Assembly: GCA_010093995.1 (NCBI GenBank) | Contig: ML992505.1 | Span: 1,381,147 to 1,445,146, forward strand | DNA length: 64,000 bases | Direction: 5' to 3' | Source of the DNA: Elsinoe ampelina | Taxonomy: Eukaryota | In this document: piece after piece, positions 17,802 through 60,379 of the stretch | Numbering within the stretch: the stretch's first letter is position 1 | Layout: each line of letters begins with the position of its first letter | The notes under the pieces: generated by a model | What the model saw: only the letters and a program-made list of their open reading frames with translations | Databases searched by the model: none | Told to the model about the DNA's origin: nothing | Position numbers and translations under genes: made by a program

Positions 17802-18129
17802 AGTTATTAAAGTATATAAGCGTATAGGAGGTAAGCTAGCGTAGGGCTAGAATAGGGTAGTTAGTAGGTAGAGTAGGGTATATAATTTAGATACCTATAC
17901 CCTACTCTACCTATACTCTACCTACCTCTTAGTATACCTACGCTAAGGTAGGTAAGGGTAGAGTATACTAGGAGGTAGGTAGAGTAGAGTAGAGTAATTA
18001 ATTTTATACCTAGTAGAGTATTAGTAATCTAAAAAGTTTAAGTAGCAATCTTAAAAGTTAATAAGAGAGGATTACTAATTATAGATTCTAATTATAAACT
18101 ATATTCTCTAATACTACTACTTATAGATT

Positions 18130-19411
18130 TTACACTTTTAATCTCTATTATACCTAGGTATTAAACATCTCCTTATCCTTAACCTTAGTAGTATCCTTAT
18201 CCTCTATATTCTTATTCTTATTATTATTATTAGTAGTAGTCTTAAGCTCGGAGTGCTCTATAACCTTATTATTCTTATCCTTACTATCTAACTTATCTTT
18301 AACTTTAATACCTAAATAATTATTCTTCTTACTACTAGCTTCTTTATCTAATATTCTTTCGATCTTATCCTTATCTTCCTTAACCTTCTCCTTATACTTA
18401 TTATTATTGTCTTCTTTATAGTATAGCTTAGTACTACGGAGTTTAAGCTTAGAGATATATTTATACTTAGGAGGTAGAGGAACGACTTACCTATATAATT
18501 GTTAGAATATACTATAATTAAAGACTATAATAAACTTACTACTAGTTAGAATTCTATAAGACTATTAATTCTATAGGAGAGAGCTCTTTAAGCTACTTAA
18601 AAAAAATCTTATGTGTCTATTTATTGTTAGTATTATTAGTAATAAGGCTTATATAGCTATCCTAGTAAATCTAGTACTATAGCTTCTCGATAATACCGCT
18701 AGTACCGTAGATATATATATAGGCTCGTATTAGCTATTATTCGCCTTACTAATTTACTACTATATTATCTTAGATATACTTAATAATCTTGTTATACTTT
18801 TACTTTCGTAGAGTCTTTCTAATACTAGTCTATTTCTTATAGGTCTATATAAATATAAATTTAAGCTACTTGCCTACAATAATTAGTACTACTATAATAG
18901 TATACTATAATAATAGACTTACTACTCCTTTACTTATTAAAGCGTTTCTCCTCTATATTATTAATAGTATTATTAATTTTAATATTCTACTTATTAGTAG
19001 AGAGCTAGTTCTACCTATCCTCTACCTTAATCTTATTACGTAAAGTACTAACTACTTTACGATCTACTATATAAGTAGTAGCTAGAGCTTACTCCTTATA
19101 TATACGCTAAGAAGTATAATCTCTCTACTTAATAGTATAAGCGCTTTAACTTAGAGGTCTAGAGTATCTAGTAATAAATCTAGTCTTATAGCCCCTTCTA
19201 GTTTAACTAGTACTACGCTAAGAGATCTAGTATTTAATTTTCTACTACTTAGAATTAAACCTCTAGCATTATTAGTAACTATATATAATAAGAAACTATA
19301 ATTAATACCCCTAACAATTCTTTTAGAATATTCTCCCTAGAGTCTTCTTCTTACTTAATTACTACTTACTCTTTCTACTCTATCTTAACGTCTTCTATAG
19401 GTATAGATATT
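18130..19411 (-). pseudogene. Unidentified multi-intron cargo gene in the hAT, with a charged low-complexity C-terminus (boundaries approximate)
   Basis: Intron-like GTAAGT..CTAAC/CTAAT..TAG segments on the minus strand (~18491-18539, ~18874-18922) and a K/E/D/N-rich reading at 18130-18420. Confidence 0.4.
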
Positions 19412-19750
19412 TAATTAAATATAATAAAAAGAGTATTTATAGTATATAAATTATATATAAGATAAGTAAAAGAGGTAAAGGTATAAAGGTAAAGTTAGAG
19501 TTAGAAATTATAATTTATAAATATATAAAATAATAAAAGGGAAAGCTAGGGTAAGGAATAAGAAAGCTATTATTATATAAGTTATTTATTATTCTCCTAT
19601 TGTTCTCTATTATTAATAGTAAATAGTATATCTAATAATAGATTTTACATTTCTTACTCTAGCCTCTTCTTTTTACTATTTTATATATATTAAAATTTTA
19701 TATATAAACTTTAACTCCTTAGCTATATATAAATAACCTCTTATTCTACT

Positions 19751-20255
19751 ATAGTATATACTAAGAATTGTCCTTAAGCTACTACTAGTCCTAGAGAAAG
19801 AGGTTATAAAGAGAAGTAACCTACTATAAAGAAGGCGCTATAATCCGGAGCTAAGCCTAGAAAGAAGTATAGATATAAGCCCGGTAGTAATTATTATAGT
19901 CTTTAATTATAGTATAGAACTAATAGAAGCTAGCTATTGCTCTCTAAGAGATTTATTGCTACTAGAAAGAGGTTACTCTATTATTCCGTAAGCTTCTCTT
20001 TTCTTACCTTATCTATAAGATTACTTAGGACTTTAAGTCTAACCTCTACTTCTAGACTAGTATAATTAGAGCTCTCTAGAAATTAGTAGAGGTATTTATT
20101 GTTAGATATATAGAAGGTATATACTTATCTAATATATATTAAATTCTCTATTAACACTATATATAGATATAAACCTTAATACTATCTATACTAAGCGTAT
20201 TACTATCTAGGCTAAGGACTCTAGCCTTACTAAGCGCTACTATAAGAAGTTCTAG
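19751..20255 (+). pseudogene. Histone H3-like gene carried by the hAT, RIP-mutated
   Basis: Reverting RIP changes gives MARTK...KKHRYKPGT/VALREIRRYQK..LL.RKLPF.RLVREIAQDFKSDLRFQ.SAIGALQE..E/D.NL.AIHAKRVTIQ.KD. Introns at 19887-19933 and 20117-20166. The 3' end is approximate. Confidence 0.92.
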
Positions 20256-20569
20256 GTTAATAATATATTAAGGGTTAGAGCTTTAAGTAGTACTTTATAC
20301 TAGGGGAATAGTATAGAAAGAGTAATAAATTTCTTTACTATAATAATATAATATAATAATACTTTAATCCTTTCTATTTATTATGTACTTTAAAGGTTAG
20401 AATTAAAAATGTTAGTTATAATTAATATTTATAATTATATAAGGGCTACTAGTGCATTTTAAAATGCCTTACGTAAAGTAATAGTAAAGAAGACTTTCTA
20501 ATAGTCTAAAAACAAATCTATTATCTAAAATTATATAGCTAAATAAGTGTAACATTATAAATAACTACA

Positions 20570-23290
20570 CTATCTATAATACTATATAACCTCTACTCTA
20601 CTATAGTAGACTCCGACGATCTAATCGATCTATAACTATATCTTCTATTAACTTTATTAGTTATAGTAATCCCTATCTCTTAAGATTTACTTAACTATCG
20701 TTTTACTATATAATAACGTAATAAGGGTAGTTAGCCTATATAATAGCATCTTCTAAAGTGTCTAACGCTTAATTCCTTAGTATATCCTAACGAATAAATA
20801 GACCTCTAAAGCTTCTTAACGTAGTAGAACTTAACACTTTAGGTATCTCGCTATAGTTACTCTAAGGAGTTCTATATACTATACTAGAACTTAAAACTAA
20901 GAACTAGACAAGTATAGAGATATTTTAGAGAAGCTATATAAGTATTAGATAGCTGTCTATACGTTTACTACCTATAGTATAGTAATACTCTTACCTACCC
21001 TACGCTAGAAAAGAATAGTACTAATATAATAAGCAAATATAGAGAGTTAAATTTTTATAGGAAAGTAATAAGACTAGTCTATAAGGAAGTACTAGTAGTT
21101 CGAGCACTTATATAACTTCGAGCTTATCTAGTAATCGATTAGAAAAATGTTCTATTGTATTTAGTTACTCGCTTCTAATTAAAGCTTATTCGAACAGTTA
21201 TTAACTATAATTAGTCCTTCTACACTATTAAGTAACTATTATTTTAATAGTTTATATAGTTCTTATACCTAGGAGCACTTATACTAAGCCGTAGTTATTT
21301 CGCTATACTCTTTATTAACGACTTTAAGACTCTCTATAAAAGCTTATTATAGAATCTTAATAAGACTATAAAGATTTTAATTATACTTAATAGCTAGTCT
21401 ACTAACAACTACTTAGGCTTTATTATAATTAAAGCTTATTATATTAACGACTAATAGTAGCTCTAGGAATAACTATTAGATATAGTACTACTTTGCAGTT
21501 AATATATAGGGCAGAATATAGCTACTAAGCTTATATAGGTACTCCGGTAGTATAATCTCTAGAACCGGCTTCTAGTAATTACTACGGATAATGTAAGTAA
21601 CAATTGTACGTTATATAAGACTATATATAAGCTTCTAAGATAGATAGGTATTATATAGGACTTATAAGAGAATACTATTCTATGCCTTATATATATTATT
21701 AACCTAGTTATATAAGACATTATTAAGTACCTTAACCTTTAGACTACTAAGGAAGAAGAGTAGGCTACTAGGCTTAAAAGATAGTACTTAAAAGATATCT
21801 CTACTAAACTCTTAGTACTAAACTCGCTTTAGAAGGTTAGCTTTCTAATTATAGTTTCTAATTATAGTCTAATAAATTGCTAGCTTTATATAACTTATAT
21901 TACTATTAACTAATTACCTTAACGGTTTAAGAGGTTTATTAACCTCTAATAAACTATAATGCCTCGAGAGCGTAAGGTTATTATTCGAGATATTAAGACG
22001 TAGTAGAACTTAACCTTCGATATATATAAGTATAGTCTCGAGCTTAGGCTATTTATCGATAAATAGCTTAAGTAGGAAATTACACTAAAAGGCTCTACTA
22101 GTGCTAGATCTAACTTAGTTAGTAATAACACTAGTAATCTAGACTATAAGGATCTTAAGCGTCTTTATCTTAATAGTATAAAATAGAATTACCTTAAGCT
22201 AGTTACAAAAATACTTAAGAACTTTAAGGAAGTAACTACCTCTCTAAGTACTATTAGCCGCCTATAGATCTTATATATCTAGATAATATATAATTGACTA
22301 TTTAACTTCCTTAATATAATTAAGAATAGTATTATAGGCGAGGAGAAGAATAATAAGAAGCGTTAGCCTATAGTAGTTAGAAGAGTAGCGTAACGTAGTT
22401 AAGATAAACTATTAAAGTACTATTCTTATACTAATAATAAGAGAGGTTACCTCTTTAATTATAGCACTATTCTCGACCCTTTATAAAAGCTAACTCCCTA
22501 CGAGGTTTATAGCTTATAGATATATTATTATAGTAAAGCTAATAGTAATATAGAACGAGACCTAGGCTAAAACTAATAAGGGGAAGTATTGTAAGTAGTT
22601 CCTTAACTACCTTAGTCGTTACAATAGTAAATTACTATTAAGTTAACCTAAAACCCTTAACGCTATAATCTTGTCTAATAATAAAGAGAATTAGTTCTAT
22701 CGACCTTAGGTACCTATATAGATTACCTCTCTATAGACTAGCTTTAGCTTCTAATCTAGTATAGGGTCTATATCCCTAGAACGAGAGAAGGAGGGATAAA
22801 CTATATATTAAGAAGGTAAGGATTACCTTAGTATCTCTCCTGTTTAAATTTAACTAGGGACTAAATTTAAGTTACTTAATTAGTAGAAGACTAATAAGAA
22901 GGAGTTCCTATAGCTTACTAAAGTCGCTTATAATATCCTTACTATACTAATAGCTAGCGTAGGTATTAAATACGTCTTTAATATAGTAAAGAATATTATT
23001 AGTAATAGAAGATACTAGCTTACTATATAAACTATCTAGCGGCTTGTTATTATAAAGCTTATAATAAGTCTCTCTTTATTAAGTAGCGATGTTATTACTA
23101 GTAGTTATTAAGATACTATTAATAGTATTTATAAAGATACTACTATAGACGAGGTAGATAACCTACTTAAGCTACCTTCTTAAGAGAGTAACTTTGTTCT
23201 AAGCAATTATAAGGAGAATAATAACATTAACAATAATAAGCCTCTAGTAAAGCGTATAAGATTATCTATAAGAGCATAGGATAGAACTAT
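20570..23290 (+). pseudogene. hAT transposase, RIP-mutated (boundaries approximate)
   Basis: ITTDN.SNN (~21578), C..HIINL (~21682), D..TRWNST remnant (~21990), LDP (~22472) and a dimerisation-domain remnant W....FP.L...A..IL....ASV..E..F (~22880-22985). Confidence 0.85.
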
Positions 23291-24218
23291 TTATAAATAT
23301 AATAACTAAGTATATAAGATACTATAATTAGAGACTATAATTATCACTGTCCTTTCTAATTTTAAATTCTATATAATGTCTTATATTAGAGAATTAAGAG
23401 AAGCTTCTATTACTTATATAATACCTACCTACGTATAGGTGTAGATTATAGTAGGTAGAGTATTTAGGTACGCGAAATACCTACTACCTAACCCCTACTA
23501 TACCTACTACTAAGAATACTCTACCTAACCTATACCTACTATACTAAGAAATAATACTCTACCCTACCCGTAGTAGAATACCTACTACCTACTAACTACC
23601 CTAGGCTAGAATAATAAAGGGAAAAAAAATTTACTATGTAGGTACTATACTAAGTTAGTAAACAAATAACTAAATAAATAAGCCCGATAGCTAGATCTAT
23701 AGTAGCGTAGGCTTAGTATATACGCTAAGCCTCCCCTACTAGCCCTTAGGCTAGTAAGACCTAGTCTACACTATATAGTACCTAAAATAGGTTACTAGTA
23801 TAGTATTAGACCTACGTAAGTATAGAGCTAGCGTTAAGTAGGATACTTATATAAAGGAAGTATTATAAAGGAGAAAAGAAGAAGAGAAGAAGAAGAGAAG
23901 GATATATATCTAGCTTTAAGCTAAGACTAATCTAGAGAATAATAGGTAGTAGTATATAATAATAGGTAGATCCTTATATATAAAGATAATAACGTAAGAG
24001 TACTATATTCTATATATAAAGAATTATACTATTATTACTATATCTAGTATACGAAGAATAGTATAGGCTACTATAGGCGCGCTATACGCGTGAAGAGTAT
24101 ACTACGCCTAAGAGGCGCTAGCGAGACGCTCTTTCCTAGTTTTCTCCTATACTAGGTTTTCTAGGTTTTATCGAGGCTTATAGGCGTAAGAGCGCGCCCC
24201 TTAAAGGGGAGAAATAAT

Positions 24219-24416
24219 TATAAGGACCGACGTAGTAAGTATACTACGCTAGCTTACCCTAGAGATACTATTCTCTATAGAAGAATAAAACACTCCTTAC
24301 CTATAGAATAGATAGAGTAGAGATTAGTCTTACGATAATCGAGAGTATACTAGTATAATACCTATTCTACTCCTATATACTTGTCTTTCTAGCTCTAATA
24401 TCCTACCTTTGTTATA
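24219..24416 (+). repeat. 3' LTR
   Basis: Direct repeat of 11365-11562, preceded by polypurine AAAGGGGAGAAA. Confidence 0.95.
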
Positions 24417-26628
24417 TATAGTCTATATCCTTTAGCTCGATAGCCTTAGTACTCCTATAATATTCTCCTTCGTCTATAAGCTTATTTATAAAATAATTTA
24501 ATATTAGTTATAAGTAACTAATAACAAACTTCCTCTATCTCTTATATATTCTATTAGTAGGACATAGATACATTAATTCTATAAACGTTATTTAGAGATT
24601 AAACTACGTTAGTTATAGTAGCTAGAATTGCTATAGTTTAAAGCTAGAACCTATAAGGCTATTACGCTATTCTTTAACGTATTATCTAACTTATTTAAAA
24701 AATATAACTACCTCCCTTCTAATGTCTATAACCTCGACGAGGTAGGCGCTAGCGTCGGTTTAACTTAATCGATATAAGTTATTATTAATTTAGATAATAC
24801 TTATCGTCGAAAGAAGGCTAGAAAATACGTTATTAGCTAATAAGAGTAGATATTAATCCTCGAGTATATATAAGCCTCTAGAGACGCGCTTCCCCTCCTT
24901 ATTATATATAAGGCTAAAAACCTTAATATACGCTAGATTCTAGACCTATAGCTAGCTAGATAGCGATTCTTAACATTGAATAAAGGCTAGATAAGTGACA
25001 TATATAGTTACGAGTAGCTTATAACTATCTTCGAGCCTAAAATACGTAACATTAATAGCTGTTAACGCCTCCTTATTCTAGACAGCTATAGCTTATACAT
25101 TATAGCTATATTTACCTTCTTCTATTTTAAGTACAATATTAACCTTATTATCTTTCTACCTTATATATTATATATTCTTTAGCCTCTTAACGTGTCTTAT
25201 TTTTTACTATTAAAGATAGCTCTTACAATTAAGATCGATAATCTAATACGTTTCAATATAGGCTATATATACTATATATAGTAGGCCGAATTCTACGTAT
25301 ATATACAAGAGTATACTCTAACTATAAGGAATATTAAATCTAGTTTTAAATACTCTAGCGTCTATCCGATAAGCCCTATTATAGTACTTACTAATTTGCT
25401 ACACGAATTACGTAATAAATTGCCTAATCGGGCAATTACCCTAATAGAAACTAGCTAATTTAACTAAAGAGTCTTATAGTTAGGGTCGCTATAATCTAGC
25501 GTAAGCTTACGTATAGCTAACTATAGTCTTAACGCGCGTATAGCTATCGTCGACGTCGAAACACTAGTTAAGCAATATATTACAAAAATGACATTATAAT
25601 TTAAATCGTTAACGGCAGCCCTAGTACTACTATAACGAGAAGTTAAATAATAGTAATAGCTTCTTAAGACGCGTAAGTATAAGAAAAGTAGTAAGCGCGT
25701 TACTATCGAAGGCTAGTTTATCTTTAGTAAGTAAGAGACTATCGATATCCTTTATAAGGCCGAAGAAGAGACAAAGAATAAGAAGTGTAAAAAGTATAAG
25801 AAATTACTTACGCTAGAGGATTTACTAGAGCCTAAGGAAGAGGAGGAGCTAGAGCCTATCGAGTCTAATTCTAGAGACGAGCTAGCTTAGATTAATAGAG
25901 TTATTAACTATTCTTATTTAAAAGTACTATTTTACGTGCGCGACTCGTAGACGTATATAACTTATAGACGCGCAACGTTACGTTAACGTTATCTATAGCT
26001 TTAAAGCCTTTATACGCGCTAGCTAGAGTTATTACGCTTTAAAGCTAGAACGTATAAGGCTATTATACCGTTCTTTAACGCGTTATCCGACTTGTTTAAA
26101 AAGCATAACTACTCCTCTTCTAACATCTATAACCTCGACGAGGTAGGCGCTAGTATCGGTTTAACTTAATTAACATAGGTAGTAGTTAGTACTAAAAATA
26201 ACTATTGTCGAAAGAAGGCTAGAAAATGCGTTATTAGCCGACAAGAGTAGATATTAATCCTTAAGTATATACGAGCCTCTAGAGACGCTCTCCCCCCCCT
26301 TATTATCTATAAGGCTAAATACCTTATAATATAGTAGATTCTAGATCCGTAGCTAGCTAGATAGCGTTTCTTAACATTAAATAAAGGCTAGACAAGCGAC
26401 GCGTATAGTTACGAGTAGCTTATAACTATCTTTAAGCCTAAAACACGTAACATTAACAGCCGTTAACGCCTCCTTATTCTAGACAGCTATAGCTTATATA
26501 TTATAGCTACATTTACCTTCTTCTATTTCGAGTATAACATTGACCTTATTGTGTTCCCCCCTTATGTATCGCACATCCTCTAGCCGCTTAACGTCGCATG
26601 TTTTTCACCGCTAAAGACAGCTCTTATA

Positions 26629-36562: not shown

Positions 36563-38316
36563 TCAGGCTATAGACCTTAGTCGATAGCAGAGACCGTCAT
36601 GACAAAATACTACCCCAGCTCTGGAGAAGAAGCCTTCAACTTTGAGATCTCCGAGCCAGTCTTCGTCATCGAGATTGATCAAGGCGGCGCTGCCGACCTG
36701 TTCCGCTGGGATGAAGCTGATCTCTGCGTCGGGGAACGGTTGAGCGCTTGACTCCAAGAACACTTCAAGTTGGCCGAATCGCATGTAAGAACTCCGAGAG
36801 CTACCACATCGGACGCTGCCCAACATGGGTTGCGTGAGAGCGTGCGAATTGGCAGTCAACGTCTTCTCATCCGCTGAAATGACCGGAGGCAACTCGTGTG
36901 GGCGACACGGCTCCAGCAGGGATGAGTGACTCGTAACGGTAAATGACAGCATGGAGTTGATGACACTCTCAGCTGGATGCCAAATTGGGGGTTTCACCCC
37001 TTTCGCCAGGATCTGCTCTAGTCGTGCATCGAGAGCGGTTACCAAAGCAGTACGCAGTGACGCGGGTTCAGGGGCAGCCCATGGCAGTCCCCAGGTCGTA
37101 TATAGCTTGCCATGAGTGCCTTGAGATAGAAAGCGCGGGTGCGAGCTGAGGACCGTGTGGCAAAGATAACAGGCGTTCTTGCCAGACGCGATGATGTGAG
37201 GTCTCGGCCCTGTCCCTCTCGTGTCGTAGTATGACATGATCTGCATCTCGGCATGCACTGTTGTCCGCTGTTGGAGATTCATCTCGAGACGGGATCGAAT
37301 TTCGGCAGCCGATTGTCGGTTCACTCTACCAACCTGATTGATCAGATGCTGAACATCCCTTCGATCCAGGTACGAATTGACCGTTTCCTGGTCAAGGGCC
37401 CCAGTTGGCTGTTGGCCACGTAATATCTGCATTGATGTATTCTCGAAGTGACGGTATCGTCGGGCGGCAGCAAGTAGCGCACGGCATGCTCTTGTGTACT
37501 CGGCCAGGCTACGAATGCATTTCTTCAAGGCCTCAGTCGCATTCCTGTCCCAGCGCCCGGGTGTGATAGGAATCATGTCGAGTTTCGTCCATTGCTCCTT
37601 TGTGAATCGATCTGCGGCCTCTAGCAAATCTAGATGACGAGGGATTGATTCAGCCTCGCGATCCAGCACAGCACATCTCTGCTGTATATCCTTCAGACGT
37701 TGCTTGACGTCCACAAGCGTGGCTCTCGAGTGCTGATGATTTCCAACTAACAGGGTCTCAGCCAATTGCATCTGGACTGCCATGGTTGGCTTGTCTCTAT
37801 TCTTCCAGGACCTTCCTTGTTTTGATCGGATCCTCGTGAGAATGCGTTCCCGATTCAATTCCACAACCTCGTGAAGGAGTCTCTCAAGGTTCGCGGGACG
37901 ATTGACTTTGGAAGTCAGCTTGGTTGCAGACATGAACGTTGAGAATGATTAGATAGACCATTTTTAGCCTCATCGCTGAGGATAACACAAATGCGCCGCA
38001 AGCTCCACACAAGTCGATCGTGTTGACCACGATTGGAGGCCACAACGAGCTTTGCTGCTGGCAACGTCAGATCGATTTCTAAAGCGGCCGCCATGACGTG
38101 GTAGGAGTCGTTCGAGTAAGAGCAGAGGAAAGCCAGATGTTGAGCAATGGTCGACTCATGATCTAGACTTATGCCTTGAGAACTTGACGAGACGATACTC
38201 TCGAGAGCGAGCTCAGGAGTTCCAATTGCGGAGGCCGTGAGGAAGCTTGCAGGTACTGGAGTTCTCGTGAGTGACCAGAGTAAGCTGATCTTGACGGCGA
38301 CTTCGATATCGCGCAT
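36563..38316 (-). CDS. Putative nucleic-acid/nucleotide deaminase, OTT_1508-like
   Basis: VHAEMQI followed by IASGKNACYLC and THGKLY..W; N-terminal exon with LAFLC and LVVASN. Intron at about 37906-37958. Confidence 0.8.
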
Positions 38317-43939: not shown

Positions 43940-44087
43940 GGGTGGGAGATGAAAGAGGGAGAGGATGGAGAGGTTGTATATATTGGAATTTGAGATCGCT
44001 ATGTGAGGGCGCTTGTGCACTGTACTGTTGTCCAATCGCTATGCAACGTGTGTTTTGGAAATGGAGTATCAACTGATAGCCTCAGCA

Positions 44088-47000
44088 TCATTGCTGGGCT
44101 GAGATACAGACTGGGCATCCGCCACCTATGGCACTTCTTATCACTTGTGCGTGACTGATCTTTGGCCCTACCGATCTCGTCATGGCTCCTGCTACTGCTT
44201 CGGGGCTGCTGTCCGCCTCGGTATCGGTGCGGGTCTGGTCGCGGAGATTCTCGACAAGAGCGTACGCCTCTTTGTGCGCTTTGAGCTTGTCGAGTAAGCA
44301 TTCGAGGTGGAATACATGACCACAAGCGAAGCCAATAAGGAAGTCGCTCTCTGTCCATTTTTAGCTGCCAAGTCTTGACTGGGGGCGGATATCGATGCTT
44401 ACCTTCTTCCTCAAAGAGCTCCTCACAGGACACACAGTGTCCAGGTGGTACATGCCGGGCCTCGTTCTTCACCATCGTGTCTCTGTTGAGATCTCCTGCT
44501 TGCTTCTTCGTCTCCTCGTCGATGGCGTTGAGTGCCGGATCGATTTTGATGGCAACTTCTTCGCCGCCTCGATGTCGGACTTCAAACTTGACACCCTTCC
44601 GCCGGCCTTCTCGCAGGGTCTCCATGCCAACTGCCACCTCGCCTCTCAAGACTTTTGCAACGCCCTCGCTAATGCTGAATTGAATGTCGTACTCTCTGAC
44701 GAGTTTCTGCAGGCCCTCTTTCAACCCCTCGATCTCCAGACCATCCGGTATTCTCTTGACAAGCTTGATCGCATCGACACTCGTTCCGACTTCCATGAGC
44801 AAAGCTCTGATGAATTTCGGCTTGTCCATGCTGTAGTTGAGCAAGTCGTCCCAGAGGTCGGCGTTCTCCTTGGCGAATTCGATTGCCTGGACGACATCTC
44901 CCAGCTTCTCGATGATCAGGAAGAGTGCTTTCTTCGTCTCACCAGTCTTGCTCAAGAGGAAGACAAGCTCGGGTATATACTCCTTCTCCTCACATATGCC
45001 GACCGCCTTGTCCAAAGTGTATGCGGTGCTCGTGCGCAAGTACAAGAACAACAAGTCCCGCTCGTACTTGGCAAAGACCTCCAAAGCCAGATCAGCGAAG
45101 CTCTCAACTATGATCCTTCCTTCAGTGGTTAATCGTTCGAGGTTGAGTCGTTCCACTTTGCTGACCAGTCGATCTTCATCCTTCGGTGGCCCTTCCCACA
45201 ATCGCTTGAAGTAGAAGTACAAGAAGACCTCGAAAGTCTTTCCTCTGCTCCTCATTTGAGCGACCACTGTCGCGGGTGGCACAATGCCGCTGTATGCCTC
45301 ATCCACCAGTAGCCCGATCGCCTCTTCACTCGCGGTCATCAACTCTTCGCGGCTGCCCTTGTCCATCACCTCTTTGCTGACCCTCAGCATCAAGAGACCA
45401 GGCACATCGTCGGCCACAGCATCGCTCAGTCTCCACTCCTTGATTAACCGCATCGCTTCCTCCGCGTTCTGCAATTGGATGTAGCATCCCAGGGCTTGTC
45501 TGGCTTGGCCTCCAGTAAGCTTCAATCTCGCCAGTCCCTCCATGAGATACCGCCACTCCTCTCCTCCCTTGTCAACATCACCACCAGCCAATCTTGTTTC
45601 TACAGCAGTGGCAACACTGCCGACATCGAACAGCCCGGTATCCCACTTGTCCAGCAGTTCTCCAAACCGTGCTGCATCGTGTGTGATGTAGTGCCCCAGC
45701 ACCACCTCGTACACAAAGCTTGGAAGAGGAGGTCGCATGTCTCCAGCAGGTATGTAGGGTGTGATTTCGTCAAATTTCTCAGCTTGGGCGAATGCGAGGA
45801 TCCAGTGCTCCCATCGTGCGGACGAGGACAGTACTTTACCAGCTACCTCGCCTGCGCGAGTCCACTGATTGGCAGACACCAGTTGCTGGAGCCAGAGGTC
45901 GGCAATTCGCCGCTTCTCTTTGGAAAGAGCAGAGTTCGGGTTGCGAGCAGCAGACAGAGTGGTTTGCGAAGCGGAGTCGTCGGCGAAGAAGTCGGCGAGA
46001 GAATTAGTGCGAGGCTCCCTTCCTGAAGGCGTAGACGGTGTGGAAAGCTCGGTATTCGATGGTAGGGATGTGGTGGTTCTGACGATGCCAGGATGATTAT
46101 CGAGCAGATCCCAAGCCTGACCGTACTTGGTGTGATCAAGCAGCCATGTCAGATGGTCGGAAAGATCGCGCTTGACTGCCAGGACACAGTCGTAAGGTGT
46201 CTGAATGAAGAGTTTGAGGCCGGGAGACGAGAGCGCGGGCGGTCCTTGAGGTGCCGGTTGCACAGATGCAGATGCTGCATTCATAACAGACATTGGAGGT
46301 GAGAGCAATGAACCACGTCCGTTCTCGCCACTCGCAGCATTGCTACGCACTGAAGCTCCAGAACTAAATATGCGTGTGGCATTGCTGGACATGTCCCAAA
46401 TGCCGGCTCCGACCGCACCAAGAGATTCCAAGGCGCCTCGTTGAGCTGGACCCAAAGCTGGCGGAGTCGGGATGTATATCGATCCGAGGTGGTAATCAGT
46501 GACCGAGAGCGATTCGTAGCGACTGACTGTGAGTGTGTCTACATCTACCTCTTCGCCAGTGGCGACTTCGACAAGTCGAAGCTCGGGTGACAAGGCGTTT
46601 TGTCGATGCCGCCATGGCGTACCTTCCTGATTAGAAGTGATAGGCTTATCATTATCGTCGCGAGTGCGATACGCAAGAACAGCAAGCAGCGAAGGGGTAT
46701 AAAGCGCCAGTCCAGATAGTATACAGTCGTCAAAAGAAAGTCTTTAGCATGTCAGCAATTGTGGCTCGAACGGGAGGCCGTGAACATACTTGTGTACAAT
46801 GTCAGCACTCCCAGCCAGCTTCTCGCCTGCATTCCTCCCGATTCCTGTTCCGCCAGGGTATACGTGCAAGATCCAAGCAGTGTCACCCCATCCTGCTATA
46901 AGCTTTTCAGGGTTCCTTTTATGAGCGTTATGCTTGCTCGGAGTTGTACTTGGGCCATTCGGAGGAGCCGATACCTCGTCATCAGTCTCCAATTGTTTGT

Positions 47001-57022: not shown

Positions 57023-60000
57023 ATGAGTGGATACAATAATCTCTTCTCGTTCGATGAACAGGAAATGAACAATATGGATCAAAGTCGACATAACTCGATG
57101 ATTGGGAATGTCAACGGCATGAACTCACCAGCCATGATGCAAGGACAATCACTCGACGATATTGTGGATCAAAATGCAAAGATGATAAGGAGACAATCCA
57201 TGCCTCAGTAATTTTCCCGTCAACGGAGCCACACTGACATGGGAGGGATGGGCAACATGATGGAGTTTTCGAGTGGGAGCCCCGCAGGTCCTCTGGAGAA
57301 CTTCAACTTTGATCCATCAACAACGCTCGATCAAGATACGTCAGGAAACCTCGTTCCCCGGACACACGGACCCAATAGGTCAAGCTTGAAGAAGCAACAA
57401 TCGGCCCACAACTTGTCTGGAATGGGGTCGCCGTATCCCCCACAACTAAATTCAGCATATTCGTCAATGATGAGCAGTAATTATCAATCACCGGCGCATG
57501 GTAGTGGAAATGTGGACATGGATATGAACAGCCCCTTTGTCAATCAGCAAATGGGCATGAACCTGGATCAATTCGGCGACTCGCATCTCACACCCATGAA
57601 CAGCACTGGTGCGAATCAGCTAAGTGCTTACAGCAATCCTTCACCGTATCAAACGTCAATGATGAACTCGCCAATGAATGTCGCAAGTATGGCAAGCTCA
57701 ATACACGGGCCAACAACAAATGATCCTGGTGGAGGACAAGGTCATGATGGTAGAAGGTCAACATACGGCGGTGGTGGAAATTCGGTACGTCGCAATTCGA
57801 TGGATTCTCAGCTTCGCCACCCGTCAAGAAGTCAAAGCATGAACATGGCTCCACAAGCCCCTCGTTCTCAATATTCTCAACATAGCCATCTTTCTCAGTC
57901 TCAACACTCACAACCATCACCCGCCCATGTCATTGCCCAGCATGAGCATAATCCGCAATTCACTGCTCAGCCGCAGAACCCTCAACGGGGTTCCTTCCAG
58001 GACAAAGGAATGAATGATCGGACAGTCAATTCATTACCTGACAATTTCGACCCCACCAAACACAATCCGAATAACCAGAACTTTCCATGGGAATCTCCAG
58101 AGGGCGGTTGGCCTTCGACCATGATCGGTCGACCACACATGCAATCTGTCTACAAGAATGCATATTCGTCGACTGGTTTTGATATGCTGGGTGTACTCAT
58201 GCGAGTCGCCACACGAACGAAGCCGGAGATCAGTCTTGGATCTGTGGATTTGTCGTGCGCTTTTGTGGTTTGCGATGCCGAGAAGGATGACTTCCCTATC
58301 ATCTACTGTTCAGACAATTTCGAGCGCCTTACAGGATATACTCGACACATGATTCTCGGACGAAATTGTAGATTCCTGCAATCACCGGACGGAAATGTTG
58401 CGCCGGGCGTGAAGCGAAAATATGTCGACGATGACTCGGTACTCTACCTCAAGAACATGATCAATGCACGGCGAGAGGCGCAAATCTCGCTGATTAACTA
58501 TCGGCGAGGAGGGCAGCCATTCATGAATCTGTTGACTATGATTCCCATCACTTGGGATACAGATCAGGTAAAATTCTTTGTTGGGTTCCAGGTCGATTTG
58601 GTCGAGCAGCCCAACGCAGTCACAAACAAGAATCCGGGTGAGCACTGCCCAAATTTACTGACCGCATTCACTAAACTTTGCAGATGGCTCGTACACCGTC
58701 AACTACCAACGTGGCATGGCCATGCCCAGATACGTCATGAATGCACCCGAATCGACAGGCCGAGCAGAACTTGGACAAACGATACCGAGGGACGATGTCT
58801 CTGCTATTCTCAGCACCATAGGTACTGGAGAGTCGGAGTATGCCAAGCGCATGTGGGACAAGGTCTTGCTCGAAAACACAGATGATGTCGTACATGTACT
58901 TTCACTCAAGGGTCTCTTCCAATGGGTATCGCCATCGGCCCTTCGAGTACTCGAATACGAACCTGGCGAGCTTATTGGGTCAGCTCTTTCATCCGTCTGC
59001 CATCCGTCAGACATTGTCCCTGTCACGCGAGAACTCAAAGATACCTCGACAGGTGCAGCTGTCAATGTAGTCTTCCGAATTCGACGAAAGAACAGCGGCT
59101 ACATGTGGTTCGAAGGTCACGGATCGCTTCATACCGAGCAGGGCAAGGGTCGCAAATCGATCATCATGGTTGGTAGGGAACGGCCTGTGTATGCTCTCAG
59201 CAAAGTTGATATCGCCGCCAACAGTGGGATTGGTGAATACGAGCTCTGGACGAAGATGTCGACTTCTGGCATGTTTCTCTTCGTCTCTTCGAATGTTCGG
59301 CAATTACTGGACCGGCAGCCTGAAGAGCTTACAGGTGTCAGTATCCAATCATTGATGCGGTCAGACTCCAAGCATGACTTTGCACGTATCCTGGAGCTGG
59401 CGAGGACAGGCAAGAAAGCCTCGGTCAAACACGAAATGATCAATAGGCGTGGTCAGGTCTTGCAAGCTTTCACAACGCTGTATCCTGGCGATGCGACAGA
59501 GGGTCTCAAGCCTACATTTATTGTGGCGCAAACCAGGTTGATCAAGTACTCACGGAACAGCACCTCGACCAAGCCAGCAACTGTATCGAAGGAGAAGAGT
59601 GCGTCTGATTCTGGCAACCCGACGCCAAATCATCTTGCGATCACACACGGCAGTCAAGGCGGGAGCACGCCATCACGAGCGACTCCTCACTACGTATCGA
59701 CAGATGTCGCTGCGGCGACCTACGCTGGTCAAAATGGTTTACCTGTCGGTCGACAAGATGCCACGCTCGCTTCGGAGGACAACCTCTTTGAAGAGCTCAA
59801 GACCACAAAGTCATCGTCGTGGCAGTATGAGATCAGACAATTGGAGAAGCGAAACAGACTTCTTGCCGAAGAAGTTCAGTCGTTATTGGCGGCGAAGAAG
59901 AAGAGAAAGAGGAGAAAGGGTGCAGGCATGCAGCAGAAAGATTGTGCCAATTGTCACACTAGGGTGACGCCTGAATGGAGAAGAGGCCCGAGTGGTCAGA

Positions 60001-60379
60001 GAGATTTGTGCAACTCTTGTGGTCTCAGATGGGCAAAGCTGGTAAGACTTGCATGACCGGCAGATTGCGATGGGCAGTCACTGACTAGATGTAGAATGGC
60101 CGTGTCTCACCTAGGACCTCATCACAGCACTCGAAGCATTCGGGTGATGCAGCTTCAGACAAAGCATCGAAAGCTTCAGCCTCACCACGCGGATCTATTG
60201 TCAAGCCCGAGACTGGAAATGGCGGCAACCCCTCGATTTCTACGACACTTGCCAATGCAAGTCATAGCAACATGCCACACGCCTCGCCCACTCAACGACA
60301 AGGCGAGAGTCACGCTTCACACATGGAGGGTGCTGAAGGGGTACCCGAAAAGATCGAGGAAGGTATTGAGCCGGACTAG
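57023..60379 (+). CDS. wc-1: White collar-1 blue-light receptor (LOV, PAS, GATA zinc finger); in-frame TAA at 57209-57211
   Basis: [23 protein letters not shown] domains and [30 protein letters not shown]. Introns at 58638-58683 and 60042-60095. Confidence 0.95.

What the first reader, a model, noticed from the sequence alone, without database searches (positions are those of the whole stretch)
19751..20255. hAT transposon carrying a histone H3 variant that lacks K9, K14, K18, K23 and K36
Seen: inside the hAT TIRs and TSD, upstream of the transposase and on the same strand, lies a two-intron H3 gene. Its tail is exactly colinear with canonical H3 (44 codons after Met to ..YKPG). Codon 9 is GCT, 14 AGA, 18 TAT, 23 CCT and 36 AGA; none can arise from a Lys codon by RIP (C>T, G>A). 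Codons 4, 27, 37, 56 and 79 still read Lys. Established: H3K9me is the heterochromatin mark on repeats in filamentous ascomycetes, and from memory H3-like genes in hAT elements were reported in Pyrenophora tritici-repentis. Inference: the element encoded its own histone that cannot be K9- or K36-methylated, a possible anti-silencing device rather than neutral cargo.
Basis: partly seen in the sequence, partly recalled or inferred. Interest (0 to 1): 0.92.

Follow-up and report, generated by a model that had tools for sequence, protein, structure and literature searches.

The report
RIP-killed hAT transposon carrying histone H3
This is a dead, heavily mutated copy of a jumping gene that once carried its own histone H3 variant with a rewritten tail; such histone-carrying transposons are already known from related fungi, so it is a new example and not a new kind.

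Summary
Window 19751-20255 (+) is a three-exon, two-intron histone H3-like gene (H3L), position for position colinear with canonical H3. It lies in a 5,751-bp hAT element (17853-23603) with perfect 19-bp inverted ends and a perfect 8-bp target duplication, upstream of a hAT transposase on the same strand.

The copy is dead. The start codon now reads ATA, there are nine in-frame TAA/TAG stops, and the RIP signature is extreme.

Replacements that RIP cannot explain number 23 of 32 in the tail middle, 1 of 12 at the tail ends and 17 of 90 in the fold, with no indel. So a tail-divergent H3 variant existed before RIP. It lacked K9, K14, K18, K23 and K36.

The family is repeated in two coded organisms, H3L included.

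The kind is published: Pyrenophora tritici-repentis (2013) and Mycosphaerellaceae (2019). This copy lies in an Elsinoe-like genome (Myriangiales). It differs from both in introns, tail and ends, so it is probably a further capture.

An anti-silencing role is untested. The tail also lost its acetylation sites, and the family was RIPped regardless.

The parts
17845..17852 (.). left target-site duplication GGCTAGAA
   Evidence: Identical 8-mer at 23604-23611.
17853..17871 (+). left terminal inverted repeat, 19 bp, starts TAGGG
   Evidence: 19 of 19 match to the reverse complement of 23585-23603; the word occurs only at these two places in the window.
18154..18486 (-). 110-codon stop-free frame rich in K/D/E/N; candidate third gene of unknown function
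   Evidence: The only stop-free frame of 100 aa or more in the element. No Pfam family in any of the six frames of 17853-19750. The strand is purine-rich, so the open frame is weak evidence of coding.
19751..19886 (+). H3L exon 1: former start codon (now ATA), 44-codon tail, first base of codon 45
   Evidence: Three TAA stops, at codons 8, 22 and 30.
19887..19933 (+). H3L intron 1, 47 nt, phase 1, GTAATT...CTAAT...AG
   Evidence: Its removal restores ..KPG-T-IAL.. in frame. It contains the bipartite ATTATAGT word.
19934..20116 (+). H3L exon 2 (codons 45-106, first part of the histone fold)
   Evidence: Pfam Histone E 6.8e-5. Gapless phmmer alignment to H3 residues 47-104 in PDB chains; all 60 listed chains are named histone H3.
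20117..20166 (+). H3L intron 2, 50 nt, phase 1 in codon 106
   Evidence: Fungal H3 gene models P0060 and P0055 read through after ..SLFE+G, which points to an intron at the same place.
20167..20255 (+). H3L exon 3 and TAG stop
20400..23260 (+). RIP-broken hAT transposase (approximate limits)
   Evidence: Dimer_Tnp_hAT at about 22821-23058. By eye, hAT-like stretches in another frame at about 21480-22500 (translations). Many stops; limits not fixed.
23585..23603 (-). right terminal inverted repeat
23604..23611 (.). right target-site duplication GGCTAGAA

Best explanation
Shown: this is one RIP-inactivated copy of a once autonomous hAT DNA transposon, 5,751 bp long with 19-bp TIRs and an 8-bp TSD. 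Between its ends it carried a hAT transposase, a histone H3-like gene (H3L) just upstream on the same strand, and possibly a third gene on the other strand.

Inferred: H3L came from a genomic, intron-bearing fungal H3 gene. It then evolved as a translated gene into a variant. That variant kept the histone fold, the first residues (ARTK) and the ..KKxRYKPG entry to the fold, but rewrote residues 5-36 of the tail. It thereby lost K9, K14, K18, K23 and K36. The element then multiplied, and RIP hit the copies independently.

Today this copy makes no protein. When alive, H3L most likely entered nucleosomes as an H3 that could take few tail marks. Whether that helped the transposon is open.
For: hAT element. 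TIR and TSD by script. hAT dimerisation domain at E 7.4e-7.

H3 homology and type. Pfam Histone. All 60 best PDB chains are named histone H3, with a gapless alignment. The HMMER scan of 1.84 billion representatives gave 363 hits at E up to 1e-3; the 41 of the 150 listed that I fetched are H3-type.

RIP. TpA/ApT is 1.84 and (CpA+TpG)/(ApC+GpT) is 0.13 in the element, against 0.53-0.57 and 1.22-1.27 in the flanking genes. All 9 in-frame stops are TAA or TAG, and 7 of 9 sit where the reference has Q or R.

Intact ORF before RIP. There are 135 codons with no indel, both introns keep GT..AG, and 73 of 90 fold positions are identical to canonical H3 or reachable from it by RIP.

Constraint. Non-RIP replacements are 1 of 12 at tail positions 1-4 and 37-44, against 23 of 32 at positions 5-36 (Fisher p 3e-4), and 17 of 90 in the fold (p 1e-7 against the tail middle). 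Such heavy replacement with no frameshift speaks against plain decay.

Burst followed by RIP. Places where other copies differ are transitions in 499 of 581 (X1) and 373 of 431 (X3). Between 18 and 30 contigs per run bear the other letter at place 20101 inside H3L exon 2.
Against: Only this one copy was read codon by codon; the table of variants in other copies was cut (781 rows not shown).

No intact relative of this H3L was found, so the state before RIP is inferred and not seen.

The fold carries 17 replacements that RIP cannot explain, including a run at 99-104 in the long helix. The Pyrenophora authors read similar changes as possible drift.

There is no RNA evidence.

The reference H3 was pieced together from three mis-predicted cluster representatives.

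The Pfam Histone score is below the curated cut-off.
Confidence: 0.75

Rival explanations
1. Anti-silencing device. The transposon kept H3L because nucleosomes containing it cannot be methylated at K9 or K36, which would blunt heterochromatin on the element or across the genome.
For: K9 and K36 are absent for reasons other than RIP. K4 in its ARTK context and all five fold lysines are kept. The pattern of change is uneven, as expected under selection. hAT elements with H3-like genes are now seen in three orders of Dothideomycetes. The Pyrenophora authors themselves raise altered chromatin as a possibility (Summary passage).
Against: K14, K18 and K23, recalled to be acetylation sites linked to active chromatin, are lost too. 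The tail therefore looks blind to marks in general and not specifically anti-repressive. 'K36' may simply be shifted, since codons 37 and 38 are both Lys. Nothing targets such a histone to the element's own DNA. The family was RIPped to death anyway. No expression, incorporation or ChIP data exist for this family.
Confidence: 0.15
2. Neutral cargo. An H3 gene was captured by chance (transduplication), was never useful, and drifted before RIP finished it.
For: This is the published reading for the Mycosphaerellaceae copies, which are truncated and all inactivated. Drift is suggested for Pyrenophora H3L. Here the tail middle is 72% replaced and the fold 19%.
Against: There is no indel in 135 codons despite heavy replacement. 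Both introns and their splice ends are kept. ARTK and ..RYKPG are spared (1 of 12 against 23 of 32). All five fold lysines are kept.
Confidence: 0.25
3. Not cargo at all: a host H3 variant gene, or a CenH3, that merely lies between two unrelated repeats.
For: A 31-nt CAGTG-type inverted match links H3L intron 1 (19885-19915) with 23319-23349. At first sight this looked like a second pair of transposon ends that would leave exon 1 outside.
Against: The 8-bp flanks of that pair do not match (read). The same word recurs at six places inside the element only. The perfect outer TIR/TSD pair encloses the whole gene. Other copies cover H3L. The fold aligns to H3 without the gap expected for a CenH3 loop-1 insertion, and all 60 best PDB chains are H3.
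Confidence: 0.03

Closest known systems
H3L-carrying hAT element of Pyrenophora tritici-repentis (Manning et al. 2013, PMC3538342; passages and section 20 part 1 read)
   Same: A hAT element of about 5.6 kb with TIRs that carries a full transposase, a further ORF of unknown function and a histone H3-like gene. The H3L is neither canonical H3 nor CenH3, and it has a divergent tail and a variable fold.
   Different: The Pyrenophora copies are nearly identical, not RIPped and expressed (ESTs), and their tails have insertions. Here the tail is colinear with H3, H3L lies between the unknown ORF and the transposase, and the copy is RIP-dead. Sequence relatedness could not be tested, because no Pyrenophora H3L sequence was reachable. 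Word searches with this H3L found nothing.
H3-like hAT family of Mycosphaerellaceae (Dhillon et al. 2019, PMC6710886; Results, Discussion part 1, Methods section 16 and supplement 2 part 3 read)
   Same: A hAT element with an 8-bp TSD carrying H3-like sequence, amplified to many copies, confined to AT-rich blocks, and with all copies inactivated by RIP.
   Different: That family is an intronless retrocopy, mostly truncated, in a 9.5-kb element with one or two H3 copies. Here the gene is full length with two introns in a 5.75-kb element. The 12-mer of this TIR and its reverse complement occur 0 times in their consensus file. By eye, the H3-like stretch in their consensus shares almost none of this gene's non-RIP replacements. 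Their survey held no Myriangiales.
Canonical histone H3 / H3.3
   Same: Same length. 73 of 90 fold positions are identical or RIP-compatible. ARTK and ..RYKPG are kept, and K4, K27, K37, K56, K64, K79, K115 and K122 are kept.
   Different: 5 of 13 lysines are lost (9, 14, 18, 23, 36), the sequence context of K9 and K27 is gone, and 23 of 32 mid-tail residues are replaced.
Centromeric H3 (CenH3 / CENP-A)
   Same: A divergent N-terminal tail on an H3-type fold.
   Different: The tail is not lengthened. There is no gap or insertion in the fold alignment, and all 60 best PDB matches are H3 and not CENP-A.

Membership tests
hAT superfamily DNA transposon | 8-bp target-site duplication | tested here: met
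   GGCTAGAA on both sides, 8 of 8.
hAT superfamily DNA transposon | short terminal inverted repeats | tested here: met
   19 of 19 bp, starting TAGGG.
hAT superfamily DNA transposon | transposase with C-terminal hAT dimerisation domain | tested here: met
   PF05699 at E 7.4e-7 and 29.3 bits, against a cut-off of 21.4.
hAT superfamily DNA transposon | recognisable catalytic core or other transposase domains | tested here: inconclusive
   No other Pfam family at E up to 1 in the three + frames of 20300-23350. hAT-like stretches are seen only by eye, and RIP has degraded the sequence.
Transduplicated H3-like gene in a hAT element (Manning 2013 kind) | H3-like gene between the TIRs of a hAT element with its own transposase | tested here: met
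Transduplicated H3-like gene in a hAT element (Manning 2013 kind) | amplified together with the element | tested here: met
   18, 19, 30 and 20 contigs (X1-X4) bear the other letter at place 20101 in exon 2. 2220, 1752, 7280 and 4205 contig pieces were laid on 18000-24500 at 80% likeness or more.
Pyrenophora H3L family proper | insertions in the N-terminal tail (as described in the paper) | tested here: not met
   The tail has exactly 44 codons, colinear with H3.
Pyrenophora H3L family proper | sequence similarity of the element or of H3L to the Pyrenophora copies | not testable with these tools
   No Pyrenophora H3L or element sequence could be fetched. The paper's supplements are PDFs and were not seen.
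Mycosphaerellaceae H3-hAT family (Dhillon 2019) | intronless retrocopy of H3 | tested here: not met
   Two introns of 47 and 50 nt.
Mycosphaerellaceae H3-hAT family (Dhillon 2019) | shared element ends | tested here: not met
   TAGGGTAGTTAG and its reverse complement occur 0 times in the consensus file of the six species.
Canonical H3 | invariant tail lysines K4, K9, K14, K18, K23, K27, K36 | tested here: not met
   Five of these seven are not Lys and cannot derive from Lys by RIP.
CenH3 | long unrelated tail and an insertion in loop 1 of the fold (recalled definition) | tested here: not met
   Colinear tail. Gapless alignment of query positions 1-58 to H3 residues 47-104.

The most novel reading that the evidence does not exclude
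hAT transposons of Dothideomycetes carry an H3 variant because it serves them. On this reading it is a transposon-encoded, 'mark-blind' histone. It keeps K4 and the fold, so it enters nucleosomes, but it cannot receive K9 or K36 methylation and has lost the K27 context. That would dilute heterochromatin on new copies. It might also dilute the heterochromatin-dependent branch of RIP, which I recall from Neurospora work that I did not read here. Finding it in a third order (Myriangiales), with a different gene structure from the two published cases, would then mean repeated, selected capture or long retention.
Probability: 0.15. Interest if true: 0.85.

Novelty: new member of a known kind. Interest (0 to 1): 0.4.

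Why it matters
Two papers already show hAT elements with H3-like genes in Pleosporales and in Mycosphaerellaceae. A flanking gene here is 100% identical to an Elsinoe ampelina protein (order Myriangiales). I found no report for this genus: searches were searches, and the one Elsinoe genome paper opened holds neither 'hAT' nor 'histone'.

The gene here is full length, keeps two introns where host H3 introns appear to lie, and has a same-length but rewritten tail. If the three cases are independent, the same superfamily has picked up the same housekeeping gene repeatedly. That is hard to put down to chance, and it makes a benefit to the element worth testing.

The test is best done where copies are intact, in Pyrenophora. 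This locus itself is a fossil.

Tried and rejected
1. Whole genome: none is held for this window, so other copies could not be collected or aligned.

2. Ends at 19571 and 23423: an inverted match of 64% over 138 bp has no matching 8-bp flanks. It was dropped in favour of the perfect outer pair.

3. Ends at 19885 and 23349: the CAGTG-type 31-nt match has flanks that do not match, and the word is an internal repeat.

4. Second copy in the window: plain blastn and a blastn on transition-collapsed sequence gave only short matches. The collapsed search was mostly noise.

5. Intact relatives of H3L. A word search with the tail gave 28 candidates, none at E up to 10. A word search with exon 2 gave 1 candidate, which did not score. 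The HMMER scan with exon 2 gave 363 hits at E up to 1e-3. Of the 150 listed I fetched 41; best identity was 47%, all were canonical-type or mis-predicted H3, and none had a similar tail. RIP destroys shared words, so these blanks are weak.

6. TIR 19-mer in metagenome contigs: 6 loci. All are gene-dense and not RIP-like, and they share only 20-25 nt with the element. They are not relatives.

7. Earlier notes of this scan: nothing by place, by sequence or by words.

8. Pfam on six frames of 17853-19750: 0 families.

9. Papers PMC4210507 and PMC5751038: 'histone' occurs 0 times in the main text.

10. Cover of X3 and X4 is nil from 23642 to 24292. This agrees with the right end at 23603, but absent cover of contigs is not evidence.

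11. Depth figures were not used as copy numbers.

Full report
**What is at the coordinates.** The stretch lies in an AT-rich block (GC 0.25-0.30). Reading 19751-19885 in frame gives 45 codons that end in ..YRYKPG.

Taking out 19887-19933 (47 nt, GT..AG) and 20117-20166 (50 nt, GT..AG) leaves 408 nt, which is 135 codons and a TAG at 20253-20255. This is the length of canonical H3.

Pfam places the core-histone family on exon 2 at E 6.8e-5 and 23.5 bits, under the curated cut-off of 26.4. A phmmer search of PDB sequences with exon 2 gives 150 matches. All 60 listed are named histone H3, H3.1, H3.2 or H3.3. The best alignment is gapless, to H3 residues 47-104.

**The copy is dead, and RIP killed it.** The start codon reads ATA. 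There are nine in-frame stops, all TAA or TAG. Seven of the nine sit where the H3 reference has Q or R.

TpA/ApT is 1.84 and (CpA+TpG)/(ApC+GpT) is 0.13 over the element. The flanking gene regions give 0.53-0.57 and 1.22-1.27.

**The element.** Reading outward and checking by script, TAGGGTAGTTAGTAGGTAG at 17853-17871 is repeated as a perfect reverse complement at 23585-23603. The word is found nowhere else in the window. GGCTAGAA flanks both ends. The element is 5,751 bp.

A hAT dimerisation domain (E 7.4e-7, above the cut-off) lies at about 22821-23058 on the + strand. By eye, further hAT-like stretches lie upstream in another frame.

Left of H3L, on the minus strand, is the only long stop-free frame of the element (18154-18486, 110 codons, rich in K/D/E/N). 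It matches no Pfam family. The strand is purine-rich there, so this is a weak candidate for a third gene.

**What the tail looked like before RIP.** RIP makes only C>T and G>A changes, so a Lys codon can only stay Lys. For each codon I listed the residues reachable by undoing such changes. The reference was pieced together from three proteins returned: P0041 for residues 0-20, P0051 for 21-44 and P0035 for the fold.

Replacements that RIP cannot explain are distributed as follows:

| Region | Non-RIP replacements |
|---|---|
| Tail positions 1-4 and 37-44 | 1 of 12 |
| Tail positions 5-36 | 23 of 32 |
| Fold (45-134) | 17 of 90 |

Fisher p is 3e-4 for tail ends against tail middle, and 1e-7 for tail middle against fold.

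Of the 13 lysines of the reference, eight are kept (4, 27, 37, 56, 64, 79, 115, 122). Five are lost (9, 14, 18, 23, 36), all in the tail middle.

There are three caveats. Present Lys codons may be RIP products of Glu, Gly or Arg codons. 'K36' is a positional call, because codons 37 and 38 are both Lys and P38 is missing. Only this copy was read.

**Was it a working gene?** There is no indel in 135 codons, although 72% of the mid-tail is replaced. Splice ends are kept. The ARTK start and the ..RYKPG entry to the fold are spared.

Both introns appear to lie where fungal H3 genes have introns. Gene models P0060 and P0055 run on after ..SLFE+G, which is the phase-1 place of intron 2. P0035, P0061 and P0046 show out-of-frame or intron-derived sequence up to ..(KP)GTVALREI, near intron 1. 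This is indirect evidence.

It points to capture of a genomic H3 gene that then evolved as a translated gene, and not to a decaying fragment.

**Other copies.** Contigs of four public runs from two coded organisms were laid on 18000-24500 at 80% likeness or more. The pieces laid were 2220, 1752, 7280 and 4205.

At place 20101 in H3L exon 2, the contigs bearing the other letter number 18, 19, 30 and 20. So many copies include H3L.

Places that differ are transitions in 499 of 581 (X1) and 373 of 431 (X3). This is what independent RIP on once-similar copies would give.

**Where the window comes from.** A 914-codon frame at 43999-46743 (Vps41 domains) is 100% identical over 85% of its length to a protein that NCBI names as from Elsinoe ampelina. 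The next hits are 81% (Sphaceloma murrayae) and 68% (Myriangium duriaei). The order is Myriangiales, class Dothideomycetes.

**What is known.** Manning et al. 2013 (passages and section 20 part 1 read) describe a hAT element of about 5.6 kb in Pyrenophora tritici-repentis. [quoted passage not shown] There are 26 near-identical copies, which are expressed. Their tails carry insertions, and they are 'neither H3 nor CenH3'. The authors ask whether altered chromatin could follow.

Dhillon et al. 2019 (Results, Discussion part 1, Methods section 16 and supplement 2 part 3 read) describe an intronless H3 retrocopy in a 9.5-kb hAT element. It is amplified to 135-784 copies in six Mycosphaerellaceae, all RIP-inactivated. 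Their survey held no Myriangiales.

This element differs from the first in its colinear tail and gene order. It differs from the second in its introns, its size and its ends (0 occurrences of the TIR 12-mer in their consensus file).

I found no report for Elsinoe. Searches were searches, and the one Elsinoe genome paper opened does not hold 'hAT' or 'histone'. The Manning supplements (PDF) were not seen; they hold the H3L alignments that would allow a direct comparison.

**How it most likely worked.** Shown: a hAT element with an H3-like gene, amplified and then RIPped.

Inferred: before RIP the gene was intact and constrained, and it encoded a nucleosome-type H3 with a tail that could take few marks.

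Speculative: that this helped the element. For the idea: K9 and K36 are gone, K4 is kept, and hAT elements with H3 genes now turn up in three orders. Against it: K14, K18 and K23 are gone too, nothing would aim the histone at the element itself, and the family was RIPped regardless.

I put the anti-silencing reading at about 0.15 and neutral cargo at about 0.25. I put the broader statement, a once-functional variant carried by a hAT that is now a fossil, at 0.75.

**Verdict.** This is a new member of a known kind, probably a further capture, of moderate interest.

Noticed in passing
window 18511-18531(-), 18891-18911(-), 19893-19913(+), 20337-20357(-), 21848-21868(+), 23321-23341(-): A bipartite word, ATTATAGT-N5-ATTATAGT, occurs six times (five perfect, one with one mismatch). 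All six lie inside the element; 0.01 matches are expected from shuffles of the whole window. One copy is in H3L intron 1. Five of the six are flanked on their own strand by GT(A/G/T)A.. upstream and by a CTAAC/CTAAT-like word plus TAG downstream, so each reads like a 42-50 nt fungal intron. It could be a family of look-alike introns within one transposon, a protein-binding word, or a by-product of RIP-biased composition. Unresolved.
   Followed up: partly
window 18154-18486 (-): A 110-codon stop-free frame rich in K/D/E/N lies upstream of H3L and reads away from it. It has no Pfam match. It may correspond to the 'ORF of unknown function' of the Pyrenophora element.
   Followed up: partly
window 23642-24500: Directly right of the element lies another repeat. 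It has higher summed contig depth in runs X1 and X2. Runs X3 and X4 have no cover from 23642 to 24292 and only slight cover from 24293.
   Followed up: no
window 23343-23449: Contigs of X1 and X2 skip 89 or 105 nt here (joints 23343>23433 and 23343>23449). Some copies of the family therefore carry a short deletion near the right end.
   Followed up: no
L001-L006 (metagenome contigs), positions 1995-2025: Six gene-dense contigs that are not RIP-like share 24-25 of 25 nt with the element's right end, in intergenic spots. A 19-mer could hit by chance in so large a collection, but the extra shared bases are unexplained. It may be a low-complexity TAG/GTAG word.
   Followed up: partly
window 36563-37948 (-): A 461-codon frame with an OTT_1508-like deaminase domain (E 4e-16) lies next to the AT-rich block at 34-36 kb.
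   Followed up: no
window 57212-60056 (+): Frames with PAS domains and a GATA zinc finger, the make-up I recall for a white-collar-1-type light regulator.
   Followed up: no
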